Positions 3,428-29,675 of a DNA stretch of 64,000 nucleotides are shown here, piece after piece. Position numbers and translations under genes: made by a program. Positions within the stretch are counted from its first letter, which is position 1. The number at the start of each line of letters is the position of its first letter. Source of the DNA: Candidatus Omnitrophota bacterium (lineage in GTDB: Bacteria; Omnitrophota; Gorgyraeia; B26-G9); contig JAZDHZ010000021.1 of NCBI GenBank assembly GCA_043805415.1, positions 8,127 through 72,126 on the forward strand, written 5' to 3'. Below the pieces are notes generated by a model. The model did no database searches and was not told the DNA's origin. It saw only the letters and a program-made list of their open reading frames with translations.

Positions 3428-3452
3428 GATTGATAAGGAAGGTTAATCTATT

Positions 3453-3671
3453 ATGGCTAGACAAATAATATTGTTTCTGGTTTTTGCTTTATGTATTTTG
3501 GGACCAAGCGGAGTTATGGCAGCAGCAGCTTTTGCCAGCATAAATGCTTTAGGTCGGAATCCATCGGCCGCGCCAAAAATTTTCACAGCCATGACAATCA
3601 CTTTAATTTTTGCTGAAGCATTGGCGATTATTGCCATGTTAATAATATTCCAATTATTTCAAGCAGGATAA
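3453..3671 (+). CDS. atpE: F-type ATP synthase subunit c (proteolipid)
   Basis: 72 aa with two TM helices, a GRNP loop motif and the conserved carboxylate in AEALAIIAM. Confidence 0.85.
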   Translation: MARQIILFLVFALCILGPSGVMAAAAFASINALGRNPSAAPKIFTAMTITLIFAEALAIIAMLIIFQLFQAG

Positions 3672-3801
3672 AAGCTGTAAACCAGAAAATAAATTTAGAT
3701 TTAAGTATGGGGGATCATTGCGATCAAATAATGACTTATGAATGATTTTTCGGTATAATAAAATTATTGATAAACTAATTGGATAACCATAGAGGTGCTA
3801 A

Positions 3802-4536
3802 ATGTTTATAGTAAGTCTTATACTTTTGCAGATTTTTATTTTCGGAGGGCTCGCCTTTTTTCTGAAGCATTTGCTTACCCGCAATGTAACCAGCGCTACT
3901 TCTCATTTGCAAGGCATGATCAAAGAAAACACAGATAAAAAAGAAGAAATGCAGAAAAAGATCGAACAAGCAGAAAAAGAGTACGCGGTAAAAATAAAAA
4001 AAGCAAAAGAAGAAGCTGAACAGATCGAAAAGCAATGCCGCAAGGAAATAGAACAGGAAAGAGATAAAATCATCAGTCAAGCCCATGAGCAAAGTGAAGA
4101 ATTAATGTCTCGCGCGAATAAAACATGTGAGACTATTTTAGCTGACCTTGATAAAAATGTTAATGAGAAGGCAGTAGCTAGAGCTGGGGAATTAATCTGT
4201 AAAGTTTTACCGGAAAAAAATTGCCGGGATATTCATCAAGAATGGGTAAAGGCATTAATTAATGAAGGCTTAAATAGTTTAGATCGTTTGCGCATACCGG
4301 ATGATATTACCCGGATTGAAGTTATTACGGCATTTGCTTTAACTGAGCAGGAAAAAGCTGAACTGCATGAGCAGCTACAGGACCATTTAGATTTAAATTT
4401 AGTCATAGAGGAAACAGTTAAGAAAGATATTGTGGCGGGCATAATAATCAATATCGGCACATTAGTTCTGAATGGTAGTTTTGTTAACAAGATCAGGGAG
4501 GTAATCCATGAGTCCTACTCAAGAACAAACGAATGA
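3802..4536 (+). CDS. atpF: F-type ATP synthase b subunit fused to a delta (OSCP)-like C-terminal domain
   Basis: N-terminal TM helix followed by a K/E-rich coiled coil, as in the b subunit. The C-terminal ~100 aa (…VAGIIINIGTLVLNGSFVNKIREV) resemble the delta C-terminus. The RBS is GAGG. Confidence 0.65.
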   Translation: MFIVSLILLQIFIFGGLAFFLKHLLTRNVTSATSHLQGMIKENTDKKEEMQKKIEQAEKEYAVKIKKAKEEAEQIEKQCRKEIEQERDKIISQAHEQSEELMSRANKTCETILADLDKNVNEKAVARAGELICKVLPEKNCRDIHQEWVKALINEGLNSLDRLRIPDDITRIEVITAFALTEQEKAELHEQLQDHLDLNLVIEETVKKDIVAGIIINIGTLVLNGSFVNKIREVIHESYSRTNE

Positions 4537-6001
4537 AACTCATGCGATAAAATTTGATGTAAAGGAAGTCGGCTGTGTTAAAGCAGTGCGGGAATTCATT
4601 GTTTTAGCGGAAAACATGCCTTCATGCGTCAATGGTCAGATTGTTGAATTTGATGCTGGTTTACGCGGAATTGTTATGGGATTTACTCAAGATGAAGTGC
4701 AAATTCTTATGCTCGGGCCAAAGGCAAAAATCCGCGCTGGCGATAAGGTATATAGTCAAGCAAAATCATTGTATTTACCTGTGGGCGATGGCTTTGTCGG
4801 TAGGGTTGTTAATGCTTTATGTGAGCCGGTAGATAGTCAGGGTGAAATAAAAACTGATGATATGTTCCCGGTATTTAAAGAAGCTCCGGGGATTATGGCT
4901 CGTGATGCTGTTGAACGGACTTTAGAGTCAGGAACAAGAATTATTGACGCGATTATGCCGCTGGCTTTAGGTCAGCGGCAGCTTTTAGTCGGAGATAGAC
5001 AAACCGGAAAAACCTCGGTAACAACGGACGCGATCATAAATCAAAAAGGAAAAGATGTTATTTGTATATATTGTGTGATTGGAAAAACTTATTCCGGTTT
5101 ATTAAAAACAATTGAATTGTTTAAAGAACATAATGTTTTTGATTACACGCTGATTGTCAGCGGAATTGCTTCTACCTCTGTCGGCGAACAGTATTTAGCG
5201 CCGTATACAGCGGCAATGATCGGTGAATATTATATGCAGCAGGGTAAAGATGTTTTGGTTATATTTGATGATTTAACCCGGCATGCCTGGATTTATCGGC
5301 AGATTTCTTTGCTGCTGAAACGTGCTCCGGGCCGGGAAGCTTATCCCGGTGATATTTTTTATATTCATTCGCAGCTTATGGAAAGAGCCGGGCAGATGAG
5401 TAAAGCTTTAGGCGGCGGATCAATGACCTTTCTGCCAATAGTTGAAACGCTGCAAGGTGATGTTGCCGGCTTTATTCCTACTAACCTTGTATCAATGACT
5501 GACGGCCAGATTTATTTCAGCTCAGCTTTATTTAACAAAGGATTCCGTCCGGCGATTGATGTCGGGCTTTCAGTATCCCGAATCGGAAATAGAGCGCAAT
5601 GGCCGGCGGTTAAAGGCCCGAGCCGAAGTCTGCGGCTTGAGTTTTTGCAGTATAAAGAACTGGTGGCCATGACCCAGTTAAGAACCACTGAGCTGTCGAA
5701 AGAAGCGGAAAAAAAATTGCGGCGGGGTGAGGCAATTACTGAATTGCTTATCCAGGATAAAAATAAGCCGGTAGCAATGGAACATCAGGTAGTGGATATG
5801 TACGCGCTTAATCGAGAGGTGTTAGATGAACTATCAGTGGATGAGATTAGAAAATTCAAAATTGATTTTTACGATAAAATAGCGGAATGGTTTCCGAATT
5901 TACCCAAGCAATTAAGAGACACTAAGATTATTGTTGATGAAAGTATTGCTAATCTTGAAGAAGCAATTTATTATTACTTTAACCAGGAACCGAAAACTTA
6001 G
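4508..6001 (+). CDS. atpA: F-type ATP synthase alpha subunit
   Basis: Walker A GDRQTGKTS, plus the alpha-specific region DDLTRHAWIYRQISLLLKRAPGREAYPGDIFYIHSQLMERA. Confidence 0.95.
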   Translation: MSPTQEQTNETHAIKFDVKEVGCVKAVREFIVLAENMPSCVNGQIVEFDAGLRGIVMGFTQDEVQILMLGPKAKIRAGDKVYSQAKSLYLPVGDGFVGRVVNALCEPVDSQGEIKTDDMFPVFKEAPGIMARDAVERTLESGTRIIDAIMPLALGQRQLLVGDRQTGKTSVTTDAIINQKGKDVICIYCVIGKTYSGLLKTIELFKEHNVFDYTLIVSGIASTSVGEQYLAPYTAAMIGEYYMQQGKDVLVIFDDLTRHAWIYRQISLLLKRAPGREAYPGDIFYIHSQLMERAGQMSKALGGGSMTFLPIVETLQGDVAGFIPTNLVSMTDGQIYFSSALFNKGFRPAIDVGLSVSRIGNRAQWPAVKGPSRSLRLEFLQYKELVAMTQLRTTELSKEAEKKLRRGEAITELLIQDKNKPVAMEHQVVDMYALNREVLDELSVDEIRKFKIDFYDKIAEWFPNLPKQLRDTKIIVDESIANLEEAIYYYFNQEPKT

Positions 6002-6177
6002 AAACAATTTCTAATTACTAATTAATAATTTCTAATGGAGTTACTAAAAAGAAAAAAGATGCGAAAAATAATAGGCAAATAAGGAGTGTTTTGCTTTTGA
6101 ATTTTTTGATCAGGGATTTTTTAGGATTTAGAAATTAGATATTAGGAATTCTGGATGAGCAGGGGGGTGGCTTAGCG

Positions 6178-7020
6178 ATGATTCCAATAGCACAATTAAA
6201 AGGGGATATGGAATTTTACAGATCACTTGGTGGTTTGATTGAGGTTTTAAAGCTTGTGGCTGCTGCCCAGTATCAAATCCTGGAAAAAAAAATCAAAACT
6301 TATGGATTATATCTGGACGCTTTAAGCAATGTGTTCAGCTGGCTGGATATGCAACAAGTAAGACATCCTTTTGTTAGTGCCAGTGATAAGCCGACAGCGA
6401 TTGTGGCGATAACTACTGATGCCGGTCTATTGGGCGGGCTTAATTCTCTGGTTATGAATAAAGCGCTTGAGCAGGTTTCAAAAGACGATTGCCGGATGGT
6501 TATTGTCGGCAATCGCGGACAATTGTATGTTGAAAAACGGGAAATGATTTATGCTAATTTCCCTGGTGTTGATGATAATAAACGATTACAGCAGGCTTTA
6601 AAATTAAGAGATTATATTATTGAAAATGTTTTAAAAGGAAAATTCGGCAAGGTTATAATTGTTTTTCCGCGGGCTTTATCTTTTACTGTACAGCGGATAG
6701 AGGTGCTGCGGGTTTTTCCATTTGTTTGCGAAACAAAAAACCGTCTTACGAATTTACAGCTTTCTGATATTATCTTAGAATCAAAATTCGGAGATATCGT
6801 GGAACATTTGATTTATTTGTGGCTGGGACAGAAAATTTTTGAAATTTTCGGGATGGCAAGATTAGCGGAGCAGGCAGCAAGATTTATGCATCTTGAGAAA
6901 TGTACTGACCGGATTCAGGATCTGGATAAACAATTACGTTATAAATATTTTCGGGCAAAACATGAAATCATTGACCAAAACATGAGAGAGTTATTCGCGG
7001 CGAGGTTATTAAATGGCTAA
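6178..7020 (+). CDS. atpG: F-type ATP synthase gamma subunit
   Basis: Size (280 aa), position between alpha and beta, and gamma-like N- and C-terminal helices (LVAAAQYQ ... RELFAARLLNG). Confidence 0.75.
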   Translation: MIPIAQLKGDMEFYRSLGGLIEVLKLVAAAQYQILEKKIKTYGLYLDALSNVFSWLDMQQVRHPFVSASDKPTAIVAITTDAGLLGGLNSLVMNKALEQVSKDDCRMVIVGNRGQLYVEKREMIYANFPGVDDNKRLQQALKLRDYIIENVLKGKFGKVIIVFPRALSFTVQRIEVLRVFPFVCETKNRLTNLQLSDIILESKFGDIVEHLIYLWLGQKIFEIFGMARLAEQAARFMHLEKCTDRIQDLDKQLRYKYFRAKHEIIDQNMRELFAARLLNG

Positions 7021-8419
7021 TAATGCTTTAAGAAAAAACATAGTCGGCAGTGTTGTCGCCGTGCAGGGGCCGGTTGTTGATGTGCAGTTTAATAATCAGG
7101 CTGATGTGCCTAATGTTTTTGATGTTATTCATACTTTTACAATTGATGGACTGAGGGTAACTTTGGAAGTCGCGGAACATTCACCAGGCAATATTGCCCG
7201 GTGTATTTCGATTAATTCTACCCAGAATTTACAGCGTAATGCTCAGGCTTTTCCCACTGGGGGGGGCATTGAAATACCAGTTGGCGATGAAACCTATACC
7301 CGGTTGATGAATGTTATGGGTGAGCCGATAGACCAAAAAGGGCCGATAAAAGCTACAGAGACAAAACCAATACGGCTGGCGGCAAAGGGAACGCAGGTTA
7401 GTTTGAAAAAAGGCAGTAAAACAAGTTTTGAAATAATGGAAACAGGAATTAAAATTTTAGACCTGTTATTTCCCTTAGTAACCGGCAGTAAAAATGGTAT
7501 TCTCGGCGGCGCGGCTATGGGAAAAAGCGTGCTTACTCTGGAAATTATTCAGCATATTGTTAAAAGACATAAAGGTACTTGTGTGTTTACTGGTGCCGGA
7601 GAGCGTGTGCGTGAGGGAAATGAATTATATCATGAGCTTGCTCGCCATGATATTTTAGAAAAAATGAAAATTGTGTTTGGCCAGATGAATGAACCTCCGG
7701 GAGCGAGATATGAAGTGGCGATGACCGGGATTACTTTGGCTGAGAGCATTCAGCGTCAGAATAAAGATGTGCTTTTGTTTATCGATAATATCTTCCGATT
7801 CTTACAGGCTGGTCAAGAAATATCCACACTTTTAGGCCGAGTTCCGTCGGAAACCGGATATCAGCCGACCTTGATCTCAGAAGCCGCGGAATTCCATGAA
7901 CGCATTCGAACTTCTGAAGGAACCGGAGGTTCAATTACCTCTATCGAAGCAGTATATGTTCCGGCTGATGACTTGACAGATCCAGCGGTAGTCGCGATTT
8001 TTAGTTTTCTTGATTCAGTTATTGTACTTTCTCGTGAAAAAGTACAGCTCGGTCTTTACCCGGCAATTGACCCGCTGCTTTCATCTTGCGCGAATTTAGA
8101 CCCGGATATAGTGGGACAAAGACATTATAATGTTTCACAACAGGTATTGCAGTTATTTCAGCGATACGAAGAATTGCGTAAAATAGTTTTAGTTATTGGA
8201 ATTGACGAATTATCATCTCAGGACCGAACAATGTATGAACGTGCTCGTAAAATGCAGTTTTTTCTTACCCAGCCGTTTTCAGTGGCAGAAGCTTATACTG
8301 GCAGGCATGGAGAATATGTTGTATTGGAAGACACATTATCCAGCTGTGAGCGGATTATGAGCGGGGAATTTGACCAAAAACGAGAAGACTTATTTTATAT
8401 GATCGGCGCCCTTCATTAA
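7013..8419 (+). CDS. atpD: F-type ATP synthase beta subunit (divergent)
   Basis: P-loop GGAAMGKSV, DNIFRF.QAGQEIS..LGR.PS..GYQPTL, VPADDLTDPA and LYPAIDPL. Overlaps the gamma stop by 8 nt. Confidence 0.9.
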   Translation: MANNALRKNIVGSVVAVQGPVVDVQFNNQADVPNVFDVIHTFTIDGLRVTLEVAEHSPGNIARCISINSTQNLQRNAQAFPTGGGIEIPVGDETYTRLMNVMGEPIDQKGPIKATETKPIRLAAKGTQVSLKKGSKTSFEIMETGIKILDLLFPLVTGSKNGILGGAAMGKSVLTLEIIQHIVKRHKGTCVFTGAGERVREGNELYHELARHDILEKMKIVFGQMNEPPGARYEVAMTGITLAESIQRQNKDVLLFIDNIFRFLQAGQEISTLLGRVPSETGYQPTLISEAAEFHERIRTSEGTGGSITSIEAVYVPADDLTDPAVVAIFSFLDSVIVLSREKVQLGLYPAIDPLLSSCANLDPDIVGQRHYNVSQQVLQLFQRYEELRKIVLVIGIDELSSQDRTMYERARKMQFFLTQPFSVAEAYTGRHGEYVVLEDTLSSCERIMSGEFDQKREDLFYMIGALH

Positions 8420-8545: not shown

Positions 8546-10774
8546 ATGACTGCTATTGATATTATCGGAGCTGGAAAATTAATTATGGATAGAAAAATTG
8601 ATGCCCGGGTAATACGCCTGCTTAAAGAAAAAAAGAATTTAGATGAGGAAGATCTCAAAAATTGTTTTATTAAAGCGGAAAAAAAACAAAATTCTCCTAT
8701 TCCTGAAATAGCTGCTAGCACTCAAATCTCAGAAGTTGAATTGCTGGAAATAATTGCTGAGGATTTCCGCACCGAATATGTGGATTTACGCAATAGTTTA
8801 ATCGAGAAATCCTTGATCAAAAAAGTGCCGGTTAAAATCGCTGCCTATTATAAATTTGCTCCTTTAAGTATTGAAAATAGACTTTTGACAATTGCCCGGG
8901 CTTATCCGCTTGATATTAAAATACTTGATGAGATAAGAACGCATCTTGGTTATAGCGTAAAAGTAGTTTTAAGCACTGAGCAGGATGTTAATGAAATGCT
9001 TAAAAAATACTATGGTTTGGGAGCTTCGACTGTAGAAAAGATTATTGCCCAAAAGGCTTATGAGCATGTTACCAGCAAAAAAACCGATGATTTAGTTGAT
9101 GATCTTGAAGAAATCGGGGAGTCAACCTCTGTTATCCAGCTTGTTAACCAGATAATCCTTGAAGCTTACACAAAACGGGCAACAGATATTCATATCGAGC
9201 CGTATCGGAATAAACTGCGGCTGCGTTATCGGATTGATGGGATTCTTTATGATGCCAATGTATCTCCAGAGATAAATAATTTCCTTATTCCGATATTATC
9301 CCGGATCAAGCTCATGTCTAATTTGAATATTGTGGAAAAGCGTGTTCCCCAGGATGGCAGAGCGATTGTTCAAGTTCAAGGACAGACTGTTGATCTGCGC
9401 GTATCTTTTATTCCGACTCCTCATGGAGAGAGTGTGGTAATTAGAATATTGCCGACAGTTATGTTATTTGGCTTGGATAGATTAGGCTTAACCCCGGAAG
9501 AACTTGATTTTTTTAAAGAATTAATCAATAAGCCGCATGGAATTATTTTTGTTACCGGCCCTACGGGTAGTGGAAAAACAACAACGCTTTACGCGTGCTT
9601 ATCAAATATAAATACTAATGAGCGTAAAATAATAACCATTGAAGACCCGATTGAGTATGAGCTGGAAGGCATAACCCAAATCCAAATAACTCCGGAAGTG
9701 GGACTTGATTTTTCTCGGGGCCTTAGGAGCATGCTGCGTCATGATCCGGATGTTATGATGGTCGGAGAAGTAAGAGATTTGGAAACAGCGGAAATCGCGA
9801 TAAGAGTCGCGCTTACCGGTCATCTTGTTTTCTCAACATTACATACTAATGATGCTGCCAGCGGGATAACTCGGTTGATTGATATTGGGCTTGAACCTTA
9901 CCTGGTTGCCTCAAGTGTCGATGCTTTTATTGCCCAGCGTTTGCTCAGACTTAATTGTCCGCATTGTAAGGCTGAAGATACTCAGGTTGTGCCTGGGATA
10001 AAGGAACTGATATTAAGGGAACTTGGCAGAATCAATATTGAGGATATTAAGATCTATCGCAGTAAGGGTTGTCAGGCTTGTAATTTTACGGGTTTTTATG
10101 GAAGAACAGCAATTCATGAGATATTAGTGTTAAATGAGAAATTAAAAGCGCTTACATCGTCTAAAGCTTCAAGTGATGAAATTAAAAAATGCGCTGTATC
10201 AGATGGGATGAAGACATTACGTCAAAGCGGATGGCTAAAAGTGCTTGAAGGTGTGACAACCACTGATGAGGTTCTTAGAGTTACTCAGGCTGACGCGGTG
10301 CCAGATTATATGCGAGTATCCGAAGAGAAGGGATATGATTCAAGAACTGATGAAAAGCCATCTAAAATGCTTAGATTAGAGATTCCGAAACAGCCGGATA
10401 AAGCGGCTAAGCAAACTGATCAGCGGATTCATGAACGGATTGAAGATCAGTTATATGTTCACTATAAAATGTTTAAAACAAAGATAAAAGATTCTGGGGA
10501 AATAGAATACGAGCCAGAGCTTATTGGGGTTACTAAAAATATTAGCGCGGGCGGAGTATTATTAAATTCCGCGGAACAAATTTCTAAAGGAGTAATTCTT
10601 GATGTAAATATGGAAATGCCTCATGACGAAAGAAAAATAGAATGTCTGGCAAGGGTTATCCGCTGTACTGAGATTATTCCGAATAAGAATTATGAAATAG
10701 CGATTTGTTTTCTGGACTTAGCTAGTTCGGAAAGAAGCAGGCTTAATCGCTATATCAATAGAGTGAGCGCGTAA
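8546..10774 (+). CDS. GspE/PilB-family secretion ATPase with a C-terminal PilZ (c-di-GMP-binding type) domain
   Basis: N-terminal T2SE N-domain. Walker [14 protein letters not shown], Asp/His boxes, and tetracysteine motif CPHCK...CQACNFTG. The C-terminal ~110 aa carry RIHERIED (RxxxR) and NISAGGV ((D/N)xSxGG), which are the PilZ signatures. The start may instead be the ATG at 8585. Confidence 0.85.
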   Translation: MTAIDIIGAGKLIMDRKIDARVIRLLKEKKNLDEEDLKNCFIKAEKKQNSPIPEIAASTQISEVELLEIIAEDFRTEYVDLRNSLIEKSLIKKVPVKIAAYYKFAPLSIENRLLTIARAYPLDIKILDEIRTHLGYSVKVVLSTEQDVNEMLKKYYGLGASTVEKIIAQKAYEHVTSKKTDDLVDDLEEIGESTSVIQLVNQIILEAYTKRATDIHIEPYRNKLRLRYRIDGILYDANVSPEINNFLIPILSRIKLMSNLNIVEKRVPQDGRAIVQVQGQTVDLRVSFIPTPHGESVVIRILPTVMLFGLDRLGLTPEELDFFKELINKPHGIIFVTGPTGSGKTTTLYACLSNINTNERKIITIEDPIEYELEGITQIQITPEVGLDFSRGLRSMLRHDPDVMMVGEVRDLETAEIAIRVALTGHLVFSTLHTNDAASGITRLIDIGLEPYLVASSVDAFIAQRLLRLNCPHCKAEDTQVVPGIKELILRELGRINIEDIKIYRSKGCQACNFTGFYGRTAIHEILVLNEKLKALTSSKASSDEIKKCAVSDGMKTLRQSGWLKVLEGVTTTDEVLRVTQADAVPDYMRVSEEKGYDSRTDEKPSKMLRLEIPKQPDKAAKQTDQRIHERIEDQLYVHYKMFKTKIKDSGEIEYEPELIGVTKNISAGGVLLNSAEQISKGVILDVNMEMPHDERKIECLARVIRCTEIIPNKNYEIAICFLDLASSERSRLNRYINRVSA

Positions 10775-10783
10775 CTCAATTTT

Positions 10784-11686
10784 ATGTTAGAAAAGCGTGA
10801 GGCTTATAAATACAGAGCATTAAAACAAGATGGAGAGCTTATAGAAGGCATTGTTTATGCTCTTAATCAGCAAGAGGCTTTTGCTAAAATACTTGAGCAG
10901 GGATATACCCCTGAAATAATTGAAAAAACAGAGTTAGCAGATCAGCGGGCTTATGAACGCAAGCAAATAGAACTCGATTTTTTTTACAGTTTATTTGGCC
11001 AAAGAGCTAAAATAAAGCTGGCAGCAGTCAGCGTAGATAGTCCGGTTTTTAAAGCAAACTTTTTTGGAATTACCCAGAATATTAGTGCCGGAGGGTTGTT
11101 ATTTAATACTCCGCGGCAGTTGAATATCGGAACGATTATTAATGTAACTCTGGAACTGCCGGATGAAGATGCGAAAATTTATGCGCAATGCCGGGTTATC
11201 CGCTGTTATGAAATTGAACAAGATATTAAATATGAAATAGCGGTTTGTTTTTCTGAATTGCCGGAGCAAGGGAAAAAAATACTTAATTCAAAAATAAGAA
11301 AAATCAGCCGGCATTTTGACCGGCGGGCTTACGAACGGTTTAATCAAGAAACAAAATTATACTTTGATTTTCATAAGCTGGAGCAAGTTGAAGAAAAACC
11401 GCAGATTGTGGAAAAAGAAAATAAGTTTGCGGGAAAAACAATTGATCTCAGCGCCGGGGGTATGTTTTTCAGCGGTGCTCTAGAGCTTAAAAAAGATCAG
11501 GTTATTGAACTTGAAATCAGGTTTGAAACGGAAAAAAAAACAATTCAGACTTTGGGCAAGGTGGTGCGTTCCATTGAAGTGCCGAACAGCAATAAAATGT
11601 TATTTCATACTGCTGTTTTTTTTCTTAATATTTCTAATTCCGATAAGAATTGGCTTAATAGGTATGTAATGGATTACAATGGATAG
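10784..11686 (+). CDS. PilC/GspF N-terminal-domain-like module fused to two tandem PilZ domains
   Basis: The N-terminus YKYRALKQDGELIEGIVYALNQQEAFAKILEQGYTPEIIEK parallels the N-termini of both PilC proteins in this window. Two PilZ signatures follow: RAYERKQIE/NISAGG and RRAYERFNQE/DLSAGG. No TM segments. Confidence 0.7.
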   Translation: MLEKREAYKYRALKQDGELIEGIVYALNQQEAFAKILEQGYTPEIIEKTELADQRAYERKQIELDFFYSLFGQRAKIKLAAVSVDSPVFKANFFGITQNISAGGLLFNTPRQLNIGTIINVTLELPDEDAKIYAQCRVIRCYEIEQDIKYEIAVCFSELPEQGKKILNSKIRKISRHFDRRAYERFNQETKLYFDFHKLEQVEEKPQIVEKENKFAGKTIDLSAGGMFFSGALELKKDQVIELEIRFETEKKTIQTLGKVVRSIEVPNSNKMLFHTAVFFLNISNSDKNWLNRYVMDYNG

Positions 11687-11697
11687 GATGTAACTCT

Positions 11698-12186
11698 ATG
11701 GGTGTTTATAAATATAAGGCAACAAAGAGTACTACCGGGGGAACAATTGAATCCATAATCTACGCGGATAGCGCTGAGGAAGCTTTTGAAAAAATAATGG
11801 AAATGGGCTATGCTCCTGAAAAAATAGAGGAAATCAATGCGCCTGATCGTCGGGTAAATGAACGCTTGGAAATAGGACTGAAAATTATTTATAGCCGGTT
11901 TAAGCCTGGCCAGGAGCCGCGGAAAACAAGAGAAGGTTCAACGAGTAATCTCAGCTCAGGAGGGCTGCTTTTTAAAGCTGAACAATCTTATGACAAAGGA
12001 ACAATTTTGGACCTTGAATTGGAATTGCCCGAAGGTATCGAGAATATCAAGTGTTTGGCAAGAGTTATTCGCTGTGATAAAATAGGGCAAGAAGAGCGTC
12101 AGTATAATGTTGCTGCATGTTTTTTAGATCTGCCTAATTCAGAACGTTCAAGAATTAATGATTATATAAACCAACAAAAAAGATAG
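11698..12186 (+). CDS. PilC/GspF N-terminal-domain-like module fused to one PilZ domain
   Basis: YKYKATKSTTGGTIESIIYADSAEEAFEKIMEMGYAPEKIEE, then RRVNERLE/NLSSGG. The C-terminal box CLARVIRC...SERSRINDYIN is nearly identical to the PilZ tail of the 8546 ATPase. Confidence 0.7.
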   Translation: MGVYKYKATKSTTGGTIESIIYADSAEEAFEKIMEMGYAPEKIEEINAPDRRVNERLEIGLKIIYSRFKPGQEPRKTREGSTSNLSSGGLLFKAEQSYDKGTILDLELELPEGIENIKCLARVIRCDKIGQEERQYNVAACFLDLPNSERSRINDYINQQKR

Positions 12187-12195
12187 ACAAGAAAA

Positions 12196-13419
12196 ATGAG
12201 CTTATATAAATACAAAGCTAAAAAAGGTCCAAATAAGATTATTAACTCTGTTATTAATGCTGTATCTCGCCAAGAAGCAATTGAGAAGATAAGCGAGATG
12301 GGATATCTTCCGATGTCGATAGAAGAAGTTCGCGAGGGGGAATCAGCCGCTTTTTCCAGCAAAAAGCTAATCCGCGTGAAACTAAGGTCAAAGCAAATAA
12401 CTGTTTTTACCAGACAGCTGGCAATATTGCTGCGTTCCGGGGTGCCGATTCTTAAAGGACTATTAATCTTAGCAGACCAAGCGCTTAATCCTGATTTTAA
12501 AGCGATATTAAACACAATTAATGCTCAGATAAAAGACGGAAATTCTCTATCCGCAGCCTTGGCGGCTTTCCCGAATATTTTTTCAGCGCTTTATGTGTCT
12601 TTGGTTTGCGCTGGCGAAGACAGCGGCACTTTAGAAACTTCTTTGCTGAGGATTGCTGAATACAGACAAAAACAAGAACAAATTTTTATGAATATTAAAA
12701 CCGCGCTTACATACCCGATTTTAATGGCTTTAGTGGGCATGGGAACAATTATATTTATGCTTACTTTTGTTATGCCCAGGCTGTTAGGAATTTTTGCCAG
12801 ACTAGGTCAAGAATTACCGCTGCCCACAAAAATACTTATTAGTATCAGTAACTTTCTAACTCAGGGATGGGTTTGGGTGATTATTGTGTGTATTGGTTTA
12901 AGCTTAGTGCTCTATTTCAAAAACAATACTCCATCAAGGAGAAGAAAATTATTTATTAGCCGGCTAAAATTAAAACTTCCTATTTTCGGAGAGGTTTTTT
13001 TAAAAGCCGAACTGGCCAGATTTAGCCGGACGCTTGAGCTTTTATTAAAGAGCGGAGTTCATGTTCTCGCTGCCTTGCAAAGAAGCATTCCGATAATTGA
13101 AAACGAAATAATGCAGGATGAGTTAAAGAAAGCTTATCTGGCGATTGAACAAGGAGAATCTTTTGGAGCAACGCTTGACCAATCGGCTGTTTTTCCCAAA
13201 TTCATGGTTAACCTTATTAGCGTGGGTGAAGAATCGGGTAATTTAGAAGAAGCGCTTAAGGAATTGGCGCTTACTTATGAAAATGAAACTGATGAAGCCG
13301 TAAAATTCATGACAAACCTTTTAGAGCCGATGATGATTTTAGTTATGGGCATTGTTGTTGGTTTTATAATTATCTCAATGCTCTTACCTGTATTTCAATT
13401 AAATGTAATGGTTAATTAA
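12196..13419 (+). CDS. Type II secretion / type IV pilus platform protein (GspF/PilC)
   Basis: 407 aa with two T2SF repeats, three TM segments, and the N-terminal YKYKAKKG...GYLPMSIEE domain. Confidence 0.9.
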   Translation: MSLYKYKAKKGPNKIINSVINAVSRQEAIEKISEMGYLPMSIEEVREGESAAFSSKKLIRVKLRSKQITVFTRQLAILLRSGVPILKGLLILADQALNPDFKAILNTINAQIKDGNSLSAALAAFPNIFSALYVSLVCAGEDSGTLETSLLRIAEYRQKQEQIFMNIKTALTYPILMALVGMGTIIFMLTFVMPRLLGIFARLGQELPLPTKILISISNFLTQGWVWVIIVCIGLSLVLYFKNNTPSRRRKLFISRLKLKLPIFGEVFLKAELARFSRTLELLLKSGVHVLAALQRSIPIIENEIMQDELKKAYLAIEQGESFGATLDQSAVFPKFMVNLISVGEESGNLEEALKELALTYENETDEAVKFMTNLLEPMMILVMGIVVGFIIISMLLPVFQLNVMVN

Positions 13420-13420
13420 A

Positions 13421-14284
13421 TTGAAAATTAAAAAAATAGTAATGTTTATTTCTTTTTTTGGGCTGATAGCTGTTTCCGCTTTGACTTTTGCCAAACAAGA
13501 TTGGGCGCAAGTAAGTTCAGATCATTTTGTGGTTTATTATAATGAGATATATGAAAATTTCGCCAGCGATGTATCAAGAAAAGCAGAAGAATATTATAAC
13601 TCTATAGCGGATGATTTAGGCTATGTTCGCTATTCTAATTTCTGGAAATGGGATAAAAGAGTAAAAATATATATATATCCAGATCATATTTCTTATCTTA
13701 GCGCAACCGATCAGCAGAGTTGGTCGCATGGGATTGCTGATTATTACAAGAAGGAAATAATTAGTTATGCTTGGGGTAAAGATTTCTTAAAATCTCTTTT
13801 ACCGCATGAAATGGCGCATCTAATATTCAGGGATTTTGTGGGATTTAAATCCGAGATCCCTTTATGGCTTGATGAAGGGGTTGCTCAATGGGAAGAAACG
13901 GATTTAAAAGCGCAAAGACTTTCGATGATAAAACAGCAAGCCAGACAAAATATTCTTTTACCGATAGAGACAATGATCGACCTGGACATAAGAACAATAA
14001 AAACTGATCAGAAGATAAGCATTAAAGCCATGGCTATTGATGATGCTCAGACTCCATTGCTTGAAATGGATGGCAATGCTCTGGTCAATATTTACTATCT
14101 GCAATCTTTTTCTCTGGTTGGATTTTTGATGGAAAGATATGGATCGGATAGCTTTGTTGTTTTTAGCCGCCAGTTGCGTGATGGTAAGCCGATCAGTGAT
14201 GCTCTGAAATTTGCTTATCCGCAGCAATTGCGGAGTATTGAGGAGCTGGAAAAACAATGGAAACAATATTTATTAAGTAATTGA
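13421..14284 (+). CDS. Secreted zinc metallopeptidase-like protein (HEXXH...E, peptidase MA-like)
   Basis: Signal peptide MKIKKIVMFISFFGLIAVSALTFA. HEMAH with a downstream E in WLDEGVAQWEE. TTG start 1 nt after the pilC stop (coupled). Confidence 0.55.
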   Translation: MKIKKIVMFISFFGLIAVSALTFAKQDWAQVSSDHFVVYYNEIYENFASDVSRKAEEYYNSIADDLGYVRYSNFWKWDKRVKIYIYPDHISYLSATDQQSWSHGIADYYKKEIISYAWGKDFLKSLLPHEMAHLIFRDFVGFKSEIPLWLDEGVAQWEETDLKAQRLSMIKQQARQNILLPIETMIDLDIRTIKTDQKISIKAMAIDDAQTPLLEMDGNALVNIYYLQSFSLVGFLMERYGSDSFVVFSRQLRDGKPISDALKFAYPQQLRSIEELEKQWKQYLLSN

Positions 14285-14312
14285 ATAATTTAATATAAAT
14301 GGGGGATATTAT

Positions 14313-14717
14313 ATGAAAAAAAAACAAGGTTTTACACTAATAGAATTAATGCTGGTTGTAATTATAATAAGCGCATTGGCCGCTATGGTGCTGCCGCGGC
14401 TTGCTGGTCGTTCTGAACAAGCAAGAACTGCTGCCGCCAATGCTGATATTAACGCGAATATCGCGACAGGTTTAAAACTCTATGAGCTGGATAATGGTCA
14501 GTTTCCTACAACAGCAGAAGGATTACAGGCACTTTTGAGTAAGCCGGCTACTGCCAATAACTGGAATGGGCCTTATATTGAAAAAGATCCGATTGACCCA
14601 TGGGGAAGAAAATACGAGTACAAATCTCCGGGACAGAATCGGCCGCAAGATTATGATCTTTTTTCTTTAGGTAGAGATGCTCAGCCTAGCGAAGATGATG
14701 TGAATAATTGGAAATAA
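14313..14717 (+). CDS. Major pseudopilin GspG-like (type IV pilin-fold)
   Basis: Prepilin N-terminus KKKQGFTLIELMLVV. The GspG-like tail DPWGRKYEYKSPGQNRPQDYDLFSLGRDAQP corresponds to the GspG 'DPWGNPYQY...YDL.SLG.DG' block. Confidence 0.85.
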   Translation: MKKKQGFTLIELMLVVIIISALAAMVLPRLAGRSEQARTAAANADINANIATGLKLYELDNGQFPTTAEGLQALLSKPATANNWNGPYIEKDPIDPWGRKYEYKSPGQNRPQDYDLFSLGRDAQPSEDDVNNWK

Positions 14718-14718
14718 T

Positions 14719-15201
14719 ATGTTATTTATCCCGGATTTTAGGTTTAAAAAATTATTTAGGGTTAAATCAGTAAACATAAACTCTGCCAATAAGAAAGCTT
14801 TTACACTGGTTGAGGTGCTTGTTTCATCAGTTATTCTCTCAGTAGGATTGGTAATAATTTTTGAAGTATTTCTTTCTTCGCTTGATATTGTGAATTTAGT
14901 GAATAATCGGTTAAATGCCCAGTTGTTTATAAATGAAAAAATCTGGCAGTTGCAAAGTAATTTAGACCGGCAAAGCGGTATGTTTATTCCAATGAAACAG
15001 TCTGGTTCGGTTATGCTGGGAAACAAGGAATTTAAATGGCAGTTAGATATGGAATTAGTGGATATTTCTCAGGAGCTGTATAAAGTTAGCGGGCAAATGA
15101 ATTGGTTGTCTGGCAGTAAACAAAAAATGATTAAACGCCAAGTAATGGTAAAAAGTTGTTTTAGTAATGCCAATCCTTGGAAAGATCATAATAGATTATG
15201 A
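14719..15201 (+). CDS. Minor pseudopilin (GspH/GspI-like)
   Basis: Prepilin-type N-terminus KAFTLVEVLVSSVILSVGLVII, small size, and position after gspG. Confidence 0.6.
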   Translation: MLFIPDFRFKKLFRVKSVNINSANKKAFTLVEVLVSSVILSVGLVIIFEVFLSSLDIVNLVNNRLNAQLFINEKIWQLQSNLDRQSGMFIPMKQSGSVMLGNKEFKWQLDMELVDISQELYKVSGQMNWLSGSKQKMIKRQVMVKSCFSNANPWKDHNRL

Positions 15202-15821
15202 AAAAGAAAAGAAAATGTTCAGCTTTGACATTTATAGAAATGCTTTTAGCCACAGCAATGGTAAGTGTTATAGCTGTTGCTTTATATGGGATGATTTCCA
15301 ATGGATTGAAAGTTTGGCAGATTGTTAACCAAGAGTCTCCGCAGATTAATTCCAACATTTTTTTTGAAAAGATAAACATGGAATTGAAAAATGCGATTGG
15401 TTTCGAAGGCATTGATTTTGTCGGTGATGAAAGCAGTTTTTCTTTTGGCTGTGTTGCCAGAACAGCTGAATCTGACAACGGTTTTAATCAGGGGATTGGG
15501 CGGGTAAAATATTTTTATGATCAGGGGTTAAATTCGTTTTATAGGCAATACGCGGATTATGAGCAATTGTTGTCCCTAGAGCAGCCTCAAGCGCGGAGTT
15601 TGCTTGAAAATGTAAATAATGTTTCATTGAGCTATTATTTTTATGATGATCAAAAAGAAACATTTTTATGGAACAATACTTGGCCGCCAGAATCATTAGC
15701 TAAACTAAATAAGCGAGCTTTGCCTTTGGCTGTTCGTGTGGCAATTGTGTTTACAACAGAAGAAACCATCTCAAAAAGAATAAAAACAATGGATATTCCG
15801 ATTGGCGCTATTGAGTATTAA
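15198..15821 (+). CDS. Minor pseudopilin (GspJ-like)
   Basis: SALTFIEMLLATAMVSVIAVAL prepilin N-terminus, 207 aa, with a 4-nt overlap on the previous gene. Confidence 0.6.
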   Translation: MKKKRKCSALTFIEMLLATAMVSVIAVALYGMISNGLKVWQIVNQESPQINSNIFFEKINMELKNAIGFEGIDFVGDESSFSFGCVARTAESDNGFNQGIGRVKYFYDQGLNSFYRQYADYEQLLSLEQPQARSLLENVNNVSLSYYFYDDQKETFLWNNTWPPESLAKLNKRALPLAVRVAIVFTTEETISKRIKTMDIPIGAIEY

Positions 15822-15849
15822 AATTTAGCGCGCGATAACAACGAACTTT

Positions 15850-16962
15850 ATGGCAAAAAATAAAATAAAAGTAAGTAAAAAAGGAAGTGTTTTAGTGCTA
15901 GTGTTATGGGCGCTTGGACTTTTGACTGTTTTTGCTGTATACTTAGGAGTCGGGGTAAGAGCGCGGATTGATTTTTTAGATAGAATGGAAACTCGGAGTA
16001 AAACGTACAATATAGCTGAAGCTGGAATAAAGCAAGCTATATCCGAAATCGGCAACTTTGAAAAGAAAAGATCCTATCTTGCGCTTAAGGACAAATGTTT
16101 AAATAATATGAAGAAGTTTTTTCTTGCGAGCCTTGATGCCGGGGAGTTTACAGTCGGGTATGAATATCGGGCAGATGATTTTTCTCTAGGACAAGGCAGT
16201 GAGCAGAAAACAATGTATGGGGCTTGTGATGTTCAAGCAATGCTGAATATAAATACCGCGGACCAAAAAGAACTGATTGCTTTATTTATTGAGACAGCTG
16301 AGATTGAGACTGATAATGCGGATGTGATCGCTTCTTCGATTATTGATTGGCGAGATGAAGATAATAACTCTTTGGCTAAAGGAGCCGAAGATCAATATTA
16401 TCGCGGTTTAAAAAACGCGTATAAATGTAAAAATAGCAGCTTTGTTTCTATTGAAGAGTTGCGTTATGTAAAGGGAATGAATTATAATATCTATAAGGAT
16501 ATTGAGCCATATATAACGGTATTTGGGGCAGGAACAGTTAATATAAATACCGCGTCAAGTAAAGTATTAAAGGCTTTAGGCTTAAGTGAGGCTTTAACTA
16601 AGAAAATAATAAATTACCGTTGTGGTCAAGATGAAATAGAAGCAAATGGTGATGATCAAGTATTTGAAAATTTAAGCTCGGTTGTTGCCAAACTGTCTCA
16701 GGTAGAATCACTTTCTGCCAGTGAAGTTGCTCAGTTAAGTAATTTAGTTGCCGCGGGACGGTTGACCATTTTTTCAAATACGTTTTTAATCCAAAGCCGG
16801 GCAAGCTTAAAAAATAAACAAGATATTTGCCGGATTAAGTGTGTTTTTGAAAAAGATTTGGATGAAAATTCTAGGAAAGCGGGTCTGATTTTAAGTTGGC
16901 GAACGGATTATTTTAAATCAGCACAGATTAATCAGTTAGAAGGGGAGTATGAAGTTTGGTAA
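15850..16962 (+). CDS. Minor pseudopilin GspK-like
   Basis: KKGSVLVLVLWALGLLTVFAVYLG resembles the GspK N-terminus (…ALLIVLWVL…). ~370 aa with two helix-hairpin-like regions. Confidence 0.55.
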   Translation: MAKNKIKVSKKGSVLVLVLWALGLLTVFAVYLGVGVRARIDFLDRMETRSKTYNIAEAGIKQAISEIGNFEKKRSYLALKDKCLNNMKKFFLASLDAGEFTVGYEYRADDFSLGQGSEQKTMYGACDVQAMLNINTADQKELIALFIETAEIETDNADVIASSIIDWRDEDNNSLAKGAEDQYYRGLKNAYKCKNSSFVSIEELRYVKGMNYNIYKDIEPYITVFGAGTVNINTASSKVLKALGLSEALTKKIINYRCGQDEIEANGDDQVFENLSSVVAKLSQVESLSASEVAQLSNLVAAGRLTIFSNTFLIQSRASLKNKQDICRIKCVFEKDLDENSRKAGLILSWRTDYFKSAQINQLEGEYEVW

Positions 16963-18388
16963 ACACAAAGATATAATTGGCATAGATTTCTCAGCGGATC
17001 AGCTTACTATTTCTCAGCTGAAAATTTCAAGCAAGGATAGATCGTTTATTAATCTGGCTCAATATCCTATTGCTGGAGCTAACGAAGATGAAATAGCGCA
17101 AATGATTATTAAGGCTTTTAAGGATTTAAATATTAAAAATCCTTATGTTATTAATGTTATTCCCTTGCATTTGACAATAACAAAAAATCTTGAAATCCCA
17201 TCTCTAGACGTAAAAGAAATAAAGGAAATTATTGATCTCCAGTCTGGACGGCAGACGCCTTATGCCCGGGAAGAGATTATAGTCGATTATATAAATATTG
17301 GAACATACCGCCAGAGCTATACAAAAATTCTGCTGGTAATTGTAACCCGCACGGCGATTAAAAAACAATTCGATGTAATGGAAAAAGCGGGTTTGAAAAT
17401 TGAAAAGATAGTTTTTGCTCCAGAAGGAGTAAGCAGGGCATGTTATAGCCAGATTAAAAAAGAAGTAAAAGATTTACCGGTTGTTATGGTTCATATTGAT
17501 TCAGATTTTACGGACTTTATCGTTGCGCTGAAAGGTGTGCCGATTTTTACAAGAAATATTCCAATAGGAGTTAAACATCTCGCTAATGACCAGACTAAAT
17601 CTGAAACTAAGTTTATTGAGGAATTAAAAAACTCGCTAGAGACCTATCAATCTGAAGACATTGATAAATCTCCGCAGTTATTAGTATTAACCGGAGCAAC
17701 CGAAAAGATTGAACAATTAGAAAAACTGCTTATTACCGAACTGCACATACCAATACAAATAATTCCTTATTTTAATGTTATTCCTTTGGCTACTGATTTA
17801 GCAAGCATGCCGACACTTACAAGAAGCGTGTCTTTTTTTAATATCACCGCGGCTTGCTTATTTTCAAAACTGATGAAAGTAAGTCTTATTCCTGAGGAAA
17901 TAAAATTAAAGCGGGCTTTTGAAGAGCGGGCTCAAGAACTAATTAAAATGAGCATCTATATAATATGTTTAATGCTTATTGCCGGAAGTTTTTTTGTAAG
18001 CGAACTTTACTTTAAAGGCCAATATCTTAAAACGCTTAAAAAGAAAAACGCAATCACTAATCAAGAGGCTCAAATTCTGGAAAAAGCTATGGAAAAAATG
18101 CGGATCGTTAAGCATTACCTGGCAAACAGAGGATATGGCTTAGAAGTGGTCGCGGCAATTTATGATATATTGCCAAAAGAGGTTATGCTTACAAATATAA
18201 AAATGGATACAGAGAGAAAACTGCATTTAAAAGGAACCGCGCGGGCGATGTCAAATGTATTTTCATTTGTCAGCGCATTAGAAGCGTCGGATTATTTCAG
18301 CAATGTAAAGACTAATTATACTACTTCCCGTAAAAAGGATGACGAGGATTGGGCGGATTTCGGGATTTCTTGTGTTTTGGAAAAATAG
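16949..18388 (+). CDS. GspL-like / PilM-PilN fusion (cytoplasmic actin-like domain, TM helix, periplasmic domain)
   Basis: IIGIDFSADQLTISQL is an actin-like N-terminal motif. A mid-protein TM follows (MSIYIICLMLIAGSFFV), with SLIPEE (PilN-like INLLP) just before it. Confidence 0.65.
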   Translation: MKFGKHKDIIGIDFSADQLTISQLKISSKDRSFINLAQYPIAGANEDEIAQMIIKAFKDLNIKNPYVINVIPLHLTITKNLEIPSLDVKEIKEIIDLQSGRQTPYAREEIIVDYINIGTYRQSYTKILLVIVTRTAIKKQFDVMEKAGLKIEKIVFAPEGVSRACYSQIKKEVKDLPVVMVHIDSDFTDFIVALKGVPIFTRNIPIGVKHLANDQTKSETKFIEELKNSLETYQSEDIDKSPQLLVLTGATEKIEQLEKLLITELHIPIQIIPYFNVIPLATDLASMPTLTRSVSFFNITAACLFSKLMKVSLIPEEIKLKRAFEERAQELIKMSIYIICLMLIAGSFFVSELYFKGQYLKTLKKKNAITNQEAQILEKAMEKMRIVKHYLANRGYGLEVVAAIYDILPKEVMLTNIKMDTERKLHLKGTARAMSNVFSFVSALEASDYFSNVKTNYTTSRKKDDEDWADFGISCVLEK

Positions 18389-18418
18389 GACTAAAAATAA
18401 TATATTCAGGGACTAAAT

Positions 18419-20330: not shown

Positions 20331-20340
20331 AATTTTATTC
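20322..20340 (+). terminator. Perfect AT-rich palindrome GGAATAAAATTTTATTCC overlapping the pgk stop
   Basis: Seen directly. A 9-bp stem with no loop, so at most a weak or partial terminator. Confidence 0.3.
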
Positions 20341-20353
20341 CAGGGTATTAAAT

Positions 20354-20803: not shown

Positions 20804-20910
20804 GTAAGATAAGTTTTTAATTAGGGTTGTTAACAAAAAGACCTCTCACCTATGTTTCTAGGTTCGAGGTCGTTTCGCCCTAAAAAAAGGGCTCAACGAG
20901 GAGAATTTGT

Positions 20911-24770: not shown

Positions 24771-24789
24771 AAAATATTTATGCTGAGGG

Positions 24790-26517: not shown

Positions 26518-26551
26518 TAAAACATATAACCAAAAATAGAAAACAATCAAA

Positions 26552-29663: not shown

Positions 29664-29675
29664 AAATCTACGATT

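What the first reader, a model, noticed from the sequence alone, without database searches (positions are those of the whole stretch)
8546..13419. Three consecutive PilZ-domain fusions flanked by the T2SS-like GspE ATPase and GspF platform genes
Four PilZ domains sit in three adjacent genes. One is on the C-terminus of a GspE/PilB ATPase. Three are on two soluble proteins whose N-termini copy the short N-terminal domain of PilC/GspF. That domain (the YKYKA..G.....A.S..EA...I...GY.P..IEE pattern) is the one expected to contact the ATPase in PilC/GspF. The PilZ tails are near-identical paralogs: CLARVIRC....Y..A.CFLDL..SERSR.N.YIN occurs in the gene at 8546 and again in the gene at 11698. This looks like a dedicated c-di-GMP input layer that could mimic the platform's ATPase-docking domain. 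I do not recognise this arrangement as a described system.
Basis: partly seen in the sequence, partly recalled or inferred. Interest (0 to 1): 0.8.

Follow-up and report, generated by a model that had tools for sequence, protein, structure and literature searches.

The report
Soluble platform-domain PilZ sensors in Omnitrophota
In an uncultivated Omnitrophota bacterium, a pilus or secretion machine carries four sensor domains for the signal molecule c-di-GMP, three of them on two small soluble proteins that copy the outer N-terminal domain of the machine's membrane platform; no paper I could search describes this, and it gives a way to study a platform domain whose partner is unknown.

Summary
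Three adjacent genes carry four canonical PilZ domains, each with RxxxR and (D/N)xSxxG motifs. One sits on the C-terminus of a GspE/PilB-type ATPase (8546-10774). Two are in a 300-aa protein (10784-11686) and one in a 162-aa protein (11698-12186).

Both small proteins begin with a copy of the ~45-residue N-domain of the adjacent GspF (54% and 45% identity, E 2e-12 and 3e-9; Pfam T2SSF_N). "Near-identical" PilZ tails is overstated: identity is 43% over the domain.

The genome is a Candidatus Omnitrophota MAG. ATPase-PilZ | N-PilZ | GspF recurs in at least 9 distinct related loci. It follows the non-respiratory F-type ATPase already described beside pilus genes in this phylum. Two relatives have ATPase-PilZ abutting GspF with no small gene.

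Only 11 full-length clusters at 50% identity turned up among 1.84 billion representatives, and every named one is Omnitrophota.

I infer gene birth by tandem duplication across the gspE/gspF boundary. This rests on gene order and unit length; tree support is weak.

In Klebsiella PulF the N-domain is peripheral and non-essential, and its partner is unknown. The ATPase is modelled to contact the Cyto1 and Cyto2 domains.

The likeliest function is c-di-GMP-gated docking or competition at the N-domain's site. This is untested.

The parts
8546..10774 (+). GspE/PilB-type motor ATPase with a C-terminal PilZ domain (742 aa; the true start is probably 8585)
   Evidence: Pfam MshEN residues 74-160, T2SSE 193-578, PilZ 653-738. 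NCBIfam GspE scores 567.7 bits and PilB 550.9 bits, both below their equivalog cut-offs. Closest PDB sequences are PilB 6olj/5tsg, E 1e-128. Orthologues of 723-745 aa have the same architecture.
10415..10771 (+). PilZ domain of the ATPase (about residues 624-742), reached through a ~45-residue low-complexity linker
   Evidence: RIHER at nt 10424 and NISAGG. R627, R631, N665, S667, G669 and G670 are invariant in 7 orthologues.
10784..11686 (+). P2: 300-aa soluble protein with a T2SSF_N-like N-domain (about residues 6-48, nt 10799-10927), PilZ-1 (about 53-172, nt 10940-11299) and PilZ-2 (about 178-300, nt 11315-11683)
   Evidence: Pfam PilZ 93.6 bits in 2 stretches. Precomputed PF28597 + PF07238. 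45% identity to the GspF N-domain, E 3e-9. In the AF2 model the N-domain is beta-beta-alpha-beta at pLDDT about 80; the rest is low confidence. dN/dS about 0.2. Present in only a subset of relatives.
11698..12186 (+). S: 162-aa soluble protein with a T2SSF_N-like N-domain (residues 1-46, nt 11698-11835) and a PilZ domain (residues 49-162, nt 11842-12183). The RxxxR motif begins 5 residues after the N-domain ends.
   Evidence: Pfam PilZ 45.2 bits. 54% identity to GspF 1-45, E 2e-12. AF2 pLDDT 79.6: beta-beta-alpha-beta module, low-confidence linker at 49-54, beta-barrel and C-terminal helix. Foldseek hits to c-di-GMP-bound PilZ structures 5vx6, 5kgo, 4xrn and 4rt0. dN/dS 0.10-0.20. Always lies directly upstream of gspF.
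12196..13419 (+). GspF/PilC platform protein (407 aa). Its own N-domain is residues 1-45 (nt 12196-12330).
   Evidence: Pfam T2SSF in 2 stretches. TIGR02120 E 1e-108. Orthologues carry PF28597 T2SSF_N. No PDB entry covers the N-domain.
13421..18958 (+). Rest of the gene run: Peptidase_MA_2 protein (13421-14284), GspG major pseudopilin (14313-14717), GspI-like (14719-15201), GspJ-like (15198-15821), GspK-like (15850-16962), PilM-PilN fusion (16949-18388), and a 179-aa protein with no family (18419-18958)
   Evidence: The same order is seen in relatives.
3158..8419 (+). Upstream F-type ATPase genes: epsilon, c (3453-3671), b/delta fusion, alpha, gamma, beta. These are conserved neighbours of the pilus/secretion genes.
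   Evidence: This matches the arrangement of the 'symbiotic' non-respiratory F-type ATPase/T4aP locus of Omnitrophota described in PMC10066038. I did not test the alpha-subunit phylogeny.

Best explanation
The three genes form a c-di-GMP input layer that is wired into one type IV filament (T2SS-like) machine of an Omnitrophota bacterium.

(1) The motor ATPase senses c-di-GMP in cis through a C-terminal PilZ domain. Its N-terminal MshEN-type domain lacks the published c-di-GMP-binding motif.

(2) The 162-aa protein S, and in some lineages the 300-aa protein P2, are soluble c-di-GMP receptors. Their address label is a copy of the platform protein's peripheral N-domain.

(3) The RxxxR half of the binding site starts only 5 residues after that N-domain. 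Ligand binding should therefore fix the N-domain against the PilZ barrel, as in two-domain PilZ proteins of the YcgR/MotI type. That would switch whether the copied N-domain can occupy the site normally used by GspF's own N-domain.

(4) Deleting the N-domain in Klebsiella PulF lowers but does not abolish function. The expected output is therefore graded tuning of filament assembly, not an on/off switch.

(5) S most likely arose by one tandem duplication of the stretch spanning the 3' end of gspE (PilZ) and the 5' end of gspF (N-domain). That event creates an in-frame N-PilZ gene between the two parents.

Shown: domain identities, motif conservation, synteny, restricted distribution, purifying selection. 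Inferred: c-di-GMP binding, the docking site, the direction of the effect and the duplication route.
For: - Domain calls and motifs.
- PilZ fold of S, with best structural matches to c-di-GMP-bound PilZ proteins.
- Binding residues are invariant across S, P2 and ATPase orthologues.
- Gaps of 9-11 nt between the genes and no terminator-like site between them.
- S lies directly upstream of gspF in every locus with enough sequence, from 75% down to 32% identity.
- Purifying selection: dN/dS 0.10-0.20 for S, and the N-domain is more constrained than the PilZ part (pN 0.09-0.12 against 0.15-0.20).
- No match to the MshEN c-di-GMP motif in the ATPase N-terminus, even with a loosened pattern; motif from PMC5013675.
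- The PulF N-domain is peripheral but contributes to activity.
- Duplication model:
  - Relatives L011 and L023 have ATPase-PilZ abutting GspF with no small gene.
  - The S N-domain is 39-41% identical to this cluster's GspF N-domains but about 26% to the window's second PilC.
  - The best non-family matches of the S profile include many C-terminal PilZ domains of GspE fusions.
  - The S start and the gspF start lie 498 nt apart. I estimate the unit PilZ + spacer + N-domain at roughly 490-500 nt, from domain lengths. In-register DNA similarity remains.
Against: - No binding or interaction data exist.
- Co-folding could not be run.
- The partner of the GspF/PilC N-domain is unknown in every system, so 'competition' is only one of several possible docking logics.
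- The relative orientation of the two domains in the S model is not confident (linker pLDDT below 50, pTM 0.57).
- Trees of the short PilZ domain do not support the duplication route robustly. Bootstrap values are 0.27 for the S clade, 0.45 for the ATPase-PilZ clade and 0.16 for the two together. One S-type protein (L018) falls elsewhere.
- No diguanylate cyclase or phosphodiesterase is encoded in the window.
Confidence: 0.5

Rival explanations
1. Adaptor, not competitor. The PilZ domain of S or P2 binds the motor ATPase, for example its N1D as Xanthomonas PilZ does with PilB, or its C-terminal PilZ through shared c-di-GMP. The copied N-domain pairs with GspF's N-domain or fills sites left empty, since a GspF trimer offers three N-domains to a GspE hexamer. 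S would then bridge or stabilise the motor-platform contact when c-di-GMP is present.
For: PilZ-PilB N1D complexes are established in Xanthomonas (PMC8389850, and review PMC11656802). The 3:6 PulF:PulE stoichiometry leaves N-domains sub-stoichiometric. The N-domain contributes positively to PulF function.
Against: The Xanthomonas-type PilZ has lost the c-di-GMP motifs and part of the barrel, whereas these domains are canonical. Nothing here shows a PilZ-ATPase contact.
Confidence: 0.25
2. S and P2 are c-di-GMP receptors that act elsewhere: on the neighbouring F-type ATPase, on the second pilus cluster at 21756-33057, or as c-di-GMP buffers. Their position and N-domain would then be leftovers of how they were born.
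For: The ATPase-pilus neighbourhood is conserved as a whole. The window holds three GspE/PilB paralogues and a PilT.
Against: The N-domain of S is under stronger constraint than its PilZ part. It keeps the GspF N-domain signature after divergence to 32-45% identity. S always lies immediately upstream of gspF. Its N-domain resembles this cluster's GspF more than the other PilC.
Confidence: 0.12
3. The small ORFs are non-functional relics of local duplications.
For: Their make-up is exactly what a junction-spanning duplication would leave. P2 is patchily distributed.
Against: The reading frames are intact. The c-di-GMP motifs are invariant. dN/dS is 0.1-0.2 across lineages whose synonymous sites are near saturation. 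S is retained at 32-85% identity in many genomes.
Confidence: 0.03

Closest known systems
MshE / PilB-type ATPases regulated by c-di-GMP through the N-terminal MshEN domain (Vibrio cholerae MshE, P. aeruginosa PA14_29490; PMC4624772, PMC5013675)
   Same: A type IV filament or T2SS motor ATPase carries its own c-di-GMP sensor domain. An MshEN-family domain is present here too.
   Different: The published two-part 24-residue binding motif is absent here. The sensor is instead a canonical PilZ on the C-terminus. I found no paper describing GspE-PilZ fusions, although the exhaustive search shows many such proteins.
PilB-PilZ-FimX complex of Xanthomonas and Pseudomonas (PMC8389850; review PMC11656802)
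   Same: A small soluble PilZ-family protein acts on a pilus motor and links it to c-di-GMP.
   Different: That PilZ cannot bind c-di-GMP, has a broken barrel and has no platform-derived domain. S and P2 keep canonical motifs and carry a T2SSF_N module.
Two-domain PilZ effectors YcgR / MotI(DgrA) / PlzD (PilZN-PilZ)
   Same: About 160-230 residues. An N-terminal targeting domain is followed by PilZ, with RxxxR in the interdomain linker. MotI 5vx6 and YcgR 5y6f are among the best structural matches. They act as c-di-GMP-dependent brakes on a rotary machine.
   Different: The N-terminal domain here is not PilZN (no Pfam hit) but a copy of a machine component. The target is a type IV filament machine, not the flagellum.
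N-domain of GspF/PilC platform proteins (Pfam T2SSF_N PF28597; PulF residues 1-54, PMC10790770)
   Same: Same sequence signature (YKYxA...EA..KI..MGY.P..IE) and the same predicted beta-beta-alpha-beta fold.
   Different: Here it is detached from the membrane protein and fused to PilZ. In GspF it precedes Cyto1 and the transmembrane segments.
'Symbiotic' F-type ATPase / type IVa pilus loci of Omnitrophota (Seymour et al. 2023, PMC10066038)
   Same: The same phylum and the same gene neighbourhood: F-type ATPase genes directly upstream of pilus/secretion genes.
   Different: That description does not mention PilZ or c-di-GMP. The sensor layer is an addition to it.

Membership tests
Canonical PilZ domain (PF07238), c-di-GMP receptor | Profile match above Pfam's gathering score | tested here: met
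   37.6, 93.6 (two stretches) and 45.2 bits against a cut-off of 22.5.
Canonical PilZ domain (PF07238), c-di-GMP receptor | RxxxR and (D/N)xSxxG motifs | tested here: met
   RIHER/NISAGG, RAYER/NISAGG, RAYER/DLSAGG and RVNER/NLSSGG. Invariant in orthologues.
Canonical PilZ domain (PF07238), c-di-GMP receptor | Six-stranded beta-barrel with a C-terminal helix | tested here: met
   For S: AF2 model and Foldseek matches to 4xrn and 4rt0 (TM about 0.7 on the target), and to 5vx6 and 5kgo. The P2 model is too weak to judge. The ATPase PilZ was not modelled.
Canonical PilZ domain (PF07238), c-di-GMP receptor | Measured c-di-GMP binding | not testable with these tools
   Needs ITC or DRaCALA on purified protein.
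T2SSF_N (PF28597), N-domain of GspF/PilC | Sequence match to the family | tested here: met
   Precomputed PF28597 on P2 itself (P0011) and on S orthologues P0020, P0030, P0018 and P0110. It is not listed for the window's own S (P0001). There the evidence is BLASTP at 54% identity, E 2e-12, to adjacent GspF. The model is missing from the local Pfam copy, so I could not rescan.
T2SSF_N (PF28597), N-domain of GspF/PilC | beta-beta-alpha-beta fold of about 45 residues | tested here: met
   AF2: E2-10, E16-23, H26-35, E38-46 in S; E6-13, E19-26, H29-38, E42-48 in P2. This matches the secondary structure reported for PulF. No solved structure exists for comparison.
GspF/PilC platform protein | T2SSF cytoplasmic domains and three transmembrane segments | tested here: not met
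   S and P2 have no T2SSF hit. They are not platform proteins, only carriers of its N-domain.
GspE (T2SS) versus PilB (T4aP) ATPase equivalogs | NCBIfam equivalog score above the cut-off | tested here: not met
   TIGR02533 567.7 against 630.25; TIGR02538 550.9 against 675.65. It is a member of the T2SSE superfamily (434 bits), but the subtype is undecided.
MshEN-type c-di-GMP-binding domain | Tandem 24-residue motif RLGxx(L/V/I)(L/V/I)xxG(L/V/I)(L/V/I)xxxxLxxxLxxQ | tested here: not met
   The Pfam MshEN domain is present (58 bits), but neither a strict nor a loosened motif is found in the first 200 residues of the ATPase. The paralogue at 24790 keeps both half-motifs except the leading Arg.
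YcgR/MotI-type PilZN-PilZ effectors | N-terminal PilZN (PF07317) or PilZNR domain | tested here: not met
   No such Pfam hit at E below 0.01. The resemblance is in layout only.
Type II (Xanthomonas-type) PilZ, PilB N1D binder | Loss of c-di-GMP motifs and an incomplete barrel | tested here: not met
   The motifs and barrel are intact. Family description.

The most novel reading that the evidence does not exclude
S and P2 are c-di-GMP-gated molecular mimics of the platform protein's N-domain. They compete with, or stand in for, that domain at its still unknown docking site on the motor complex. This would be a regulatory principle not described for any type IV filament machine. They were created in one step by a tandem duplication across the gspE/gspF gene boundary. 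If so, they also point to the partner and the role of the GspF/PilC N-domain in general.
Probability: 0.3. Interest if true: 0.7.

Novelty: new variant of a known kind. Interest (0 to 1): 0.55.

Why it matters
c-di-GMP control of pili and secretion is known to act through MshEN domains, FimX and degenerate PilZ partners of PilB. A soluble sensor built from a piece of the machine itself has not been described in the papers I could search.

The N-domain of GspF/PilC is widespread enough to have its own Pfam family, and it measurably helps function in PulF. Yet it has no known partner and no solved structure. A natural, soluble, ligand-switchable copy of it is a ready-made probe for that question.

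The locus is also the F-type ATPase/pilus locus proposed to mediate host attachment in the ultra-small, probably predatory or parasitic Omnitrophota. A second-messenger switch on it would say something about how these cells decide to engage a host.

The case may also be a clean example of a new gene born by duplication across a gene junction.

Tried and rejected
There is no interface prediction.
- The Foldseek AFDB library was not available.
- The search for related loci with the two broader alignments failed for lack of a conserved stretch. The scan with the narrow alignment reached only close relatives. It also returned false joins, and L011's 'match' is ATPase PilZ plus GspF N-domain.
- The third word-index protein search, with the ATPase C-terminus, returned only 4 hits and gave no census of GspE-PilZ fusions.
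- NJ trees of the PilZ domain gave the expected topology only with weak bootstrap. I do not rest the origin model on them. A first bootstrap script timed out.
- The P2 structure model is of low confidence outside the N-domain and was not used for fold search.
- A chance or compositional origin of the N-terminal similarity is rejected by the pairwise E-values and the Pfam family.
- Rfam and tRNA scans of the window found nothing.
- The promoter/terminator scan is at background level.

Full report
**What is there**

The window reads like a bacterial chromosome. It is about 38% G+C and nearly all long ORFs are on the + strand. Exact matches name the source as a Candidatus Omnitrophota MAG.

Coordinates 8546-18958 hold one tightly packed gene run:
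- a GspE/PilB-type ATPase;
- two small PilZ proteins;
- GspF;
- a Peptidase_MA_2 protein;
- GspG-, GspI-, GspJ- and GspK-like pseudopilins;
- a PilM-PilN fusion;
- a 179-aa protein with no family.

Gaps between the first four genes are 9-11 nt. No terminator-like site separates them.

A second pilus cluster lies at 21756-33057. It holds two more PilB-like ATPases, PilT, PilC, PilM-N and a secretin. F-type ATPase genes lie directly upstream at 3158-8419.

**The observation**

It is confirmed.
- Pfam finds PilZ above threshold in all three genes, with two copies in the 300-aa protein.
- All four domains carry RxxxR and (D/N)xSxxG. These are the only such motif pairs in all six frames of the window.
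- The motif residues are invariant in orthologues of each protein.
- An AlphaFold2 model of the 162-aa protein, here called S, has pLDDT 79.6. It shows a beta-beta-alpha-beta module (residues 2-46), a low-confidence linker (49-54), and a beta-barrel with a C-terminal helix.
- Its best PDB matches are c-di-GMP-binding PilZ proteins: MotI, MrkH, PA4608, Alg44 and YcgR.

The N-terminal modules are true homologues of the GspF N-domain.
- S residues 1-46 are 54% identical to the adjacent GspF (E 2e-12).
- The 300-aa protein, here called P2, is 45% identical (E 3e-9).
- The precomputed Pfam marks list the recent family T2SSF_N (PF28597) on P2 and on several S orthologues, as well as on GspF itself.

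Two corrections apply. The PilZ tails are 43% identical over the domain, not near-identical. The ATPase probably starts at nt 8585.

**Distribution**

A profile of S was scored against 1.84 billion representative proteins. Within the 150 best hits listed, only 11 clusters at 50% identity matched from the first to the last profile position. One of these is P2-type. A twelfth family sequence, P0018, has the same architecture. Every member that carries a source name is from Omnitrophota.

The arrangements found are:
- ATPase-PilZ | S | GspF in at least 9 distinct related loci: L001/L002, L004/L005, L007, L008, L009, L021, L022, and the short contigs L018 and L020, where gspF follows directly. S identity to the window's copy runs from 75% down to 32%.
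- The trio with P2 recurs in L024. Shared contig lengths suggest it in two further assemblies. It is absent from L001 and L007, although their S is 70-75% identical.
- Two more distant relatives, L011 and L023, have ATPase-PilZ abutting GspF with no small gene.
- The F-type ATPase genes precede the cluster wherever the contig extends upstream of the ATPase gene.

S and P2 are under purifying selection, with dN/dS of 0.10-0.20. The N-domain of S is more constrained than its PilZ part. Synonymous sites are close to saturation.

**Origin (inference)**

S is made of the two gene ends that meet at the gspE/gspF junction. A tandem duplication of the stretch 'PilZ + spacer + N-domain' would give [ATPase-PilZ][N-PilZ][N-GspF] in one step.

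In favour:
- Two relatives lack the small gene, which fits an ancestral state without it.
- The S start and the gspF start are 498 nt apart. By my estimate from the domain lengths the duplication unit would be roughly 490-500 nt.
- DNA similarity remains in register. The PilZ of the ATPase and PilZ-1 of P2 share 59 nt at 78% identity, at a constant offset of 540 nt.
- The S N-domain is 39-41% identical to this cluster's GspF N-domains but about 26% to the other PilC in the window.
- Many of the best non-family hits of the S profile are C-terminal PilZ domains of GspE fusions.

Against:
- A neighbour-joining tree gives the expected sister relation, but bootstrap is only 0.16-0.45.
- One S-type sequence (L018) falls elsewhere.

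Same-genome S/GspF pairs are no more alike than cross-genome pairs (40.8% against 38.9%). The event is therefore old and has not been blurred by gene conversion.

**How it probably works**

The ATPase carries an MshEN-family domain. That domain lacks the tandem 24-residue c-di-GMP motif defined for MshE. The C-terminal PilZ is therefore the likely cis sensor.

The literature does not say so. In Klebsiella PulF:
- the N-domain (residues 1-54) is peripheral and flexibly linked;
- it is not needed for stability or oligomerisation;
- it is not essential, though its deletion significantly lowers secretion and pilus assembly;
- the modelled ATPase contact runs through Cyto1 and Cyto2 to the N2D of PulE, and the N-domain was omitted from that model.

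Other recent machine models do not address the N-domain either. No solved structure covers it.

What the sequence does show is that the RxxxR motif of S begins five residues after the N-domain ends. In two-domain PilZ proteins the ligand clamps that linker and fixes the two domains. This point is from my own knowledge of YcgR, PlzD and MotI. The layout match is supported.

My best reading is therefore as follows. c-di-GMP switches whether the soluble N-domain copy can sit at the site used by GspF's own N-domain. The output is graded tuning of filament assembly.

The data cannot separate competition from bridging, where PilZ binds the ATPase and the N-domain binds the platform.

**Comparison and novelty**

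c-di-GMP control of type IV filament motors is well known (MshEN, FimX, PilZ-PilB). The F-type ATPase/pilus locus of Omnitrophota is also described. A preprint on giant genes notes small pilZ genes near such regions and GGDEF domains in giant proteins of this phylum.

I found no paper on a T2SSF_N-PilZ fusion or on GspE-PilZ fusions. Public annotation says only 'PilZ domain-containing protein'.

I rate it a new variant of a known kind. The parts and the general logic are familiar. The use of a detached platform domain as the address label is not.

**Verdict**

The feature is real and conserved, and its domains are correctly identified. Its mechanistic premise needs correcting.

Interest is 0.55. 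A specialist would find the architecture unexpected, and it makes the role of the GspF/PilC N-domain testable. But function is inferred from sequence alone and the organism is uncultivated.

Noticed in passing
window 3158-8419: The F-type ATPase gene set is epsilon, c (3453-3671), b/delta fusion (3802-4536), alpha, gamma and beta, with no a-subunit gene visible. It lies directly upstream of the pilus/secretion cluster and is conserved there in relatives. It fits the arrangement of the 'non-respiratory, symbiotic' F-type ATPase of Omnitrophota (PMC10066038).
   Followed up: partly
window 9-2972 (runs off the start): This is the C-terminal 987 aa of a very long ORF with no Pfam hit. Orthologues in L001 and L002 are 4325-4392 aa. 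Omnitrophota giant genes are reported next to T2SS-like loci and pilZ genes (bioRxiv 10.1101/2023.11.21.568195).
   Followed up: partly
window 21756-33057: A second pilus cluster carries two PilB-like ATPases (21756, 24790), PilT (23706), PilC (26552), a PilM-PilN fusion (28065), two proteins with no family (29676, 30413) and the only secretin in the window (31120). The first cluster has no secretin or PilT of its own, so the two may share parts.
   Followed up: no
window 24790-26517: This PilB paralogue keeps both MshEN half-motifs almost intact (TIGNILQERGFISKADLKEGLESQ and PLGKILVNLGFITEGQLLNALGIQ). The leading Arg of each is replaced by Thr or Pro, so c-di-GMP binding is uncertain.
   Followed up: partly
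window 19146-21675: A GspG-like pseudopilin gene (20354-20803) sits between pgk and tpiA. The same insertion is present in L001 and L002.
   Followed up: no
window 13421-14284: A Peptidase_MA_2 protein with a hydrophobic N-terminus lies directly after gspF (1-nt gap). It is conserved there in most relatives but absent in L023. It could be a substrate or an accessory part of the machine.
   Followed up: no
window 56993-62354: A V/A-type ATPase gene set (DUF2764 protein, A and B subunits) is present in addition to the F-type genes, so one 64 kb stretch carries two rotary ATPase systems.
   Followed up: no
window 45959-52741: Two large proteins are each mostly without family matches. One is 1223 aa with only a CofD-like stretch at residues 571-694. 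The other is 988 aa with only an HD_4 domain at residues 122-282.
   Followed up: no
L019 315-848 (protein P0110): This is a 177-aa T2SSF_N-PilZ-like protein whose PilZ part has lost RxxxR and has NVGAGG in place of NxSxxG. Its upstream neighbour is not a GspE. It may be a degenerate or repurposed family member.
   Followed up: no
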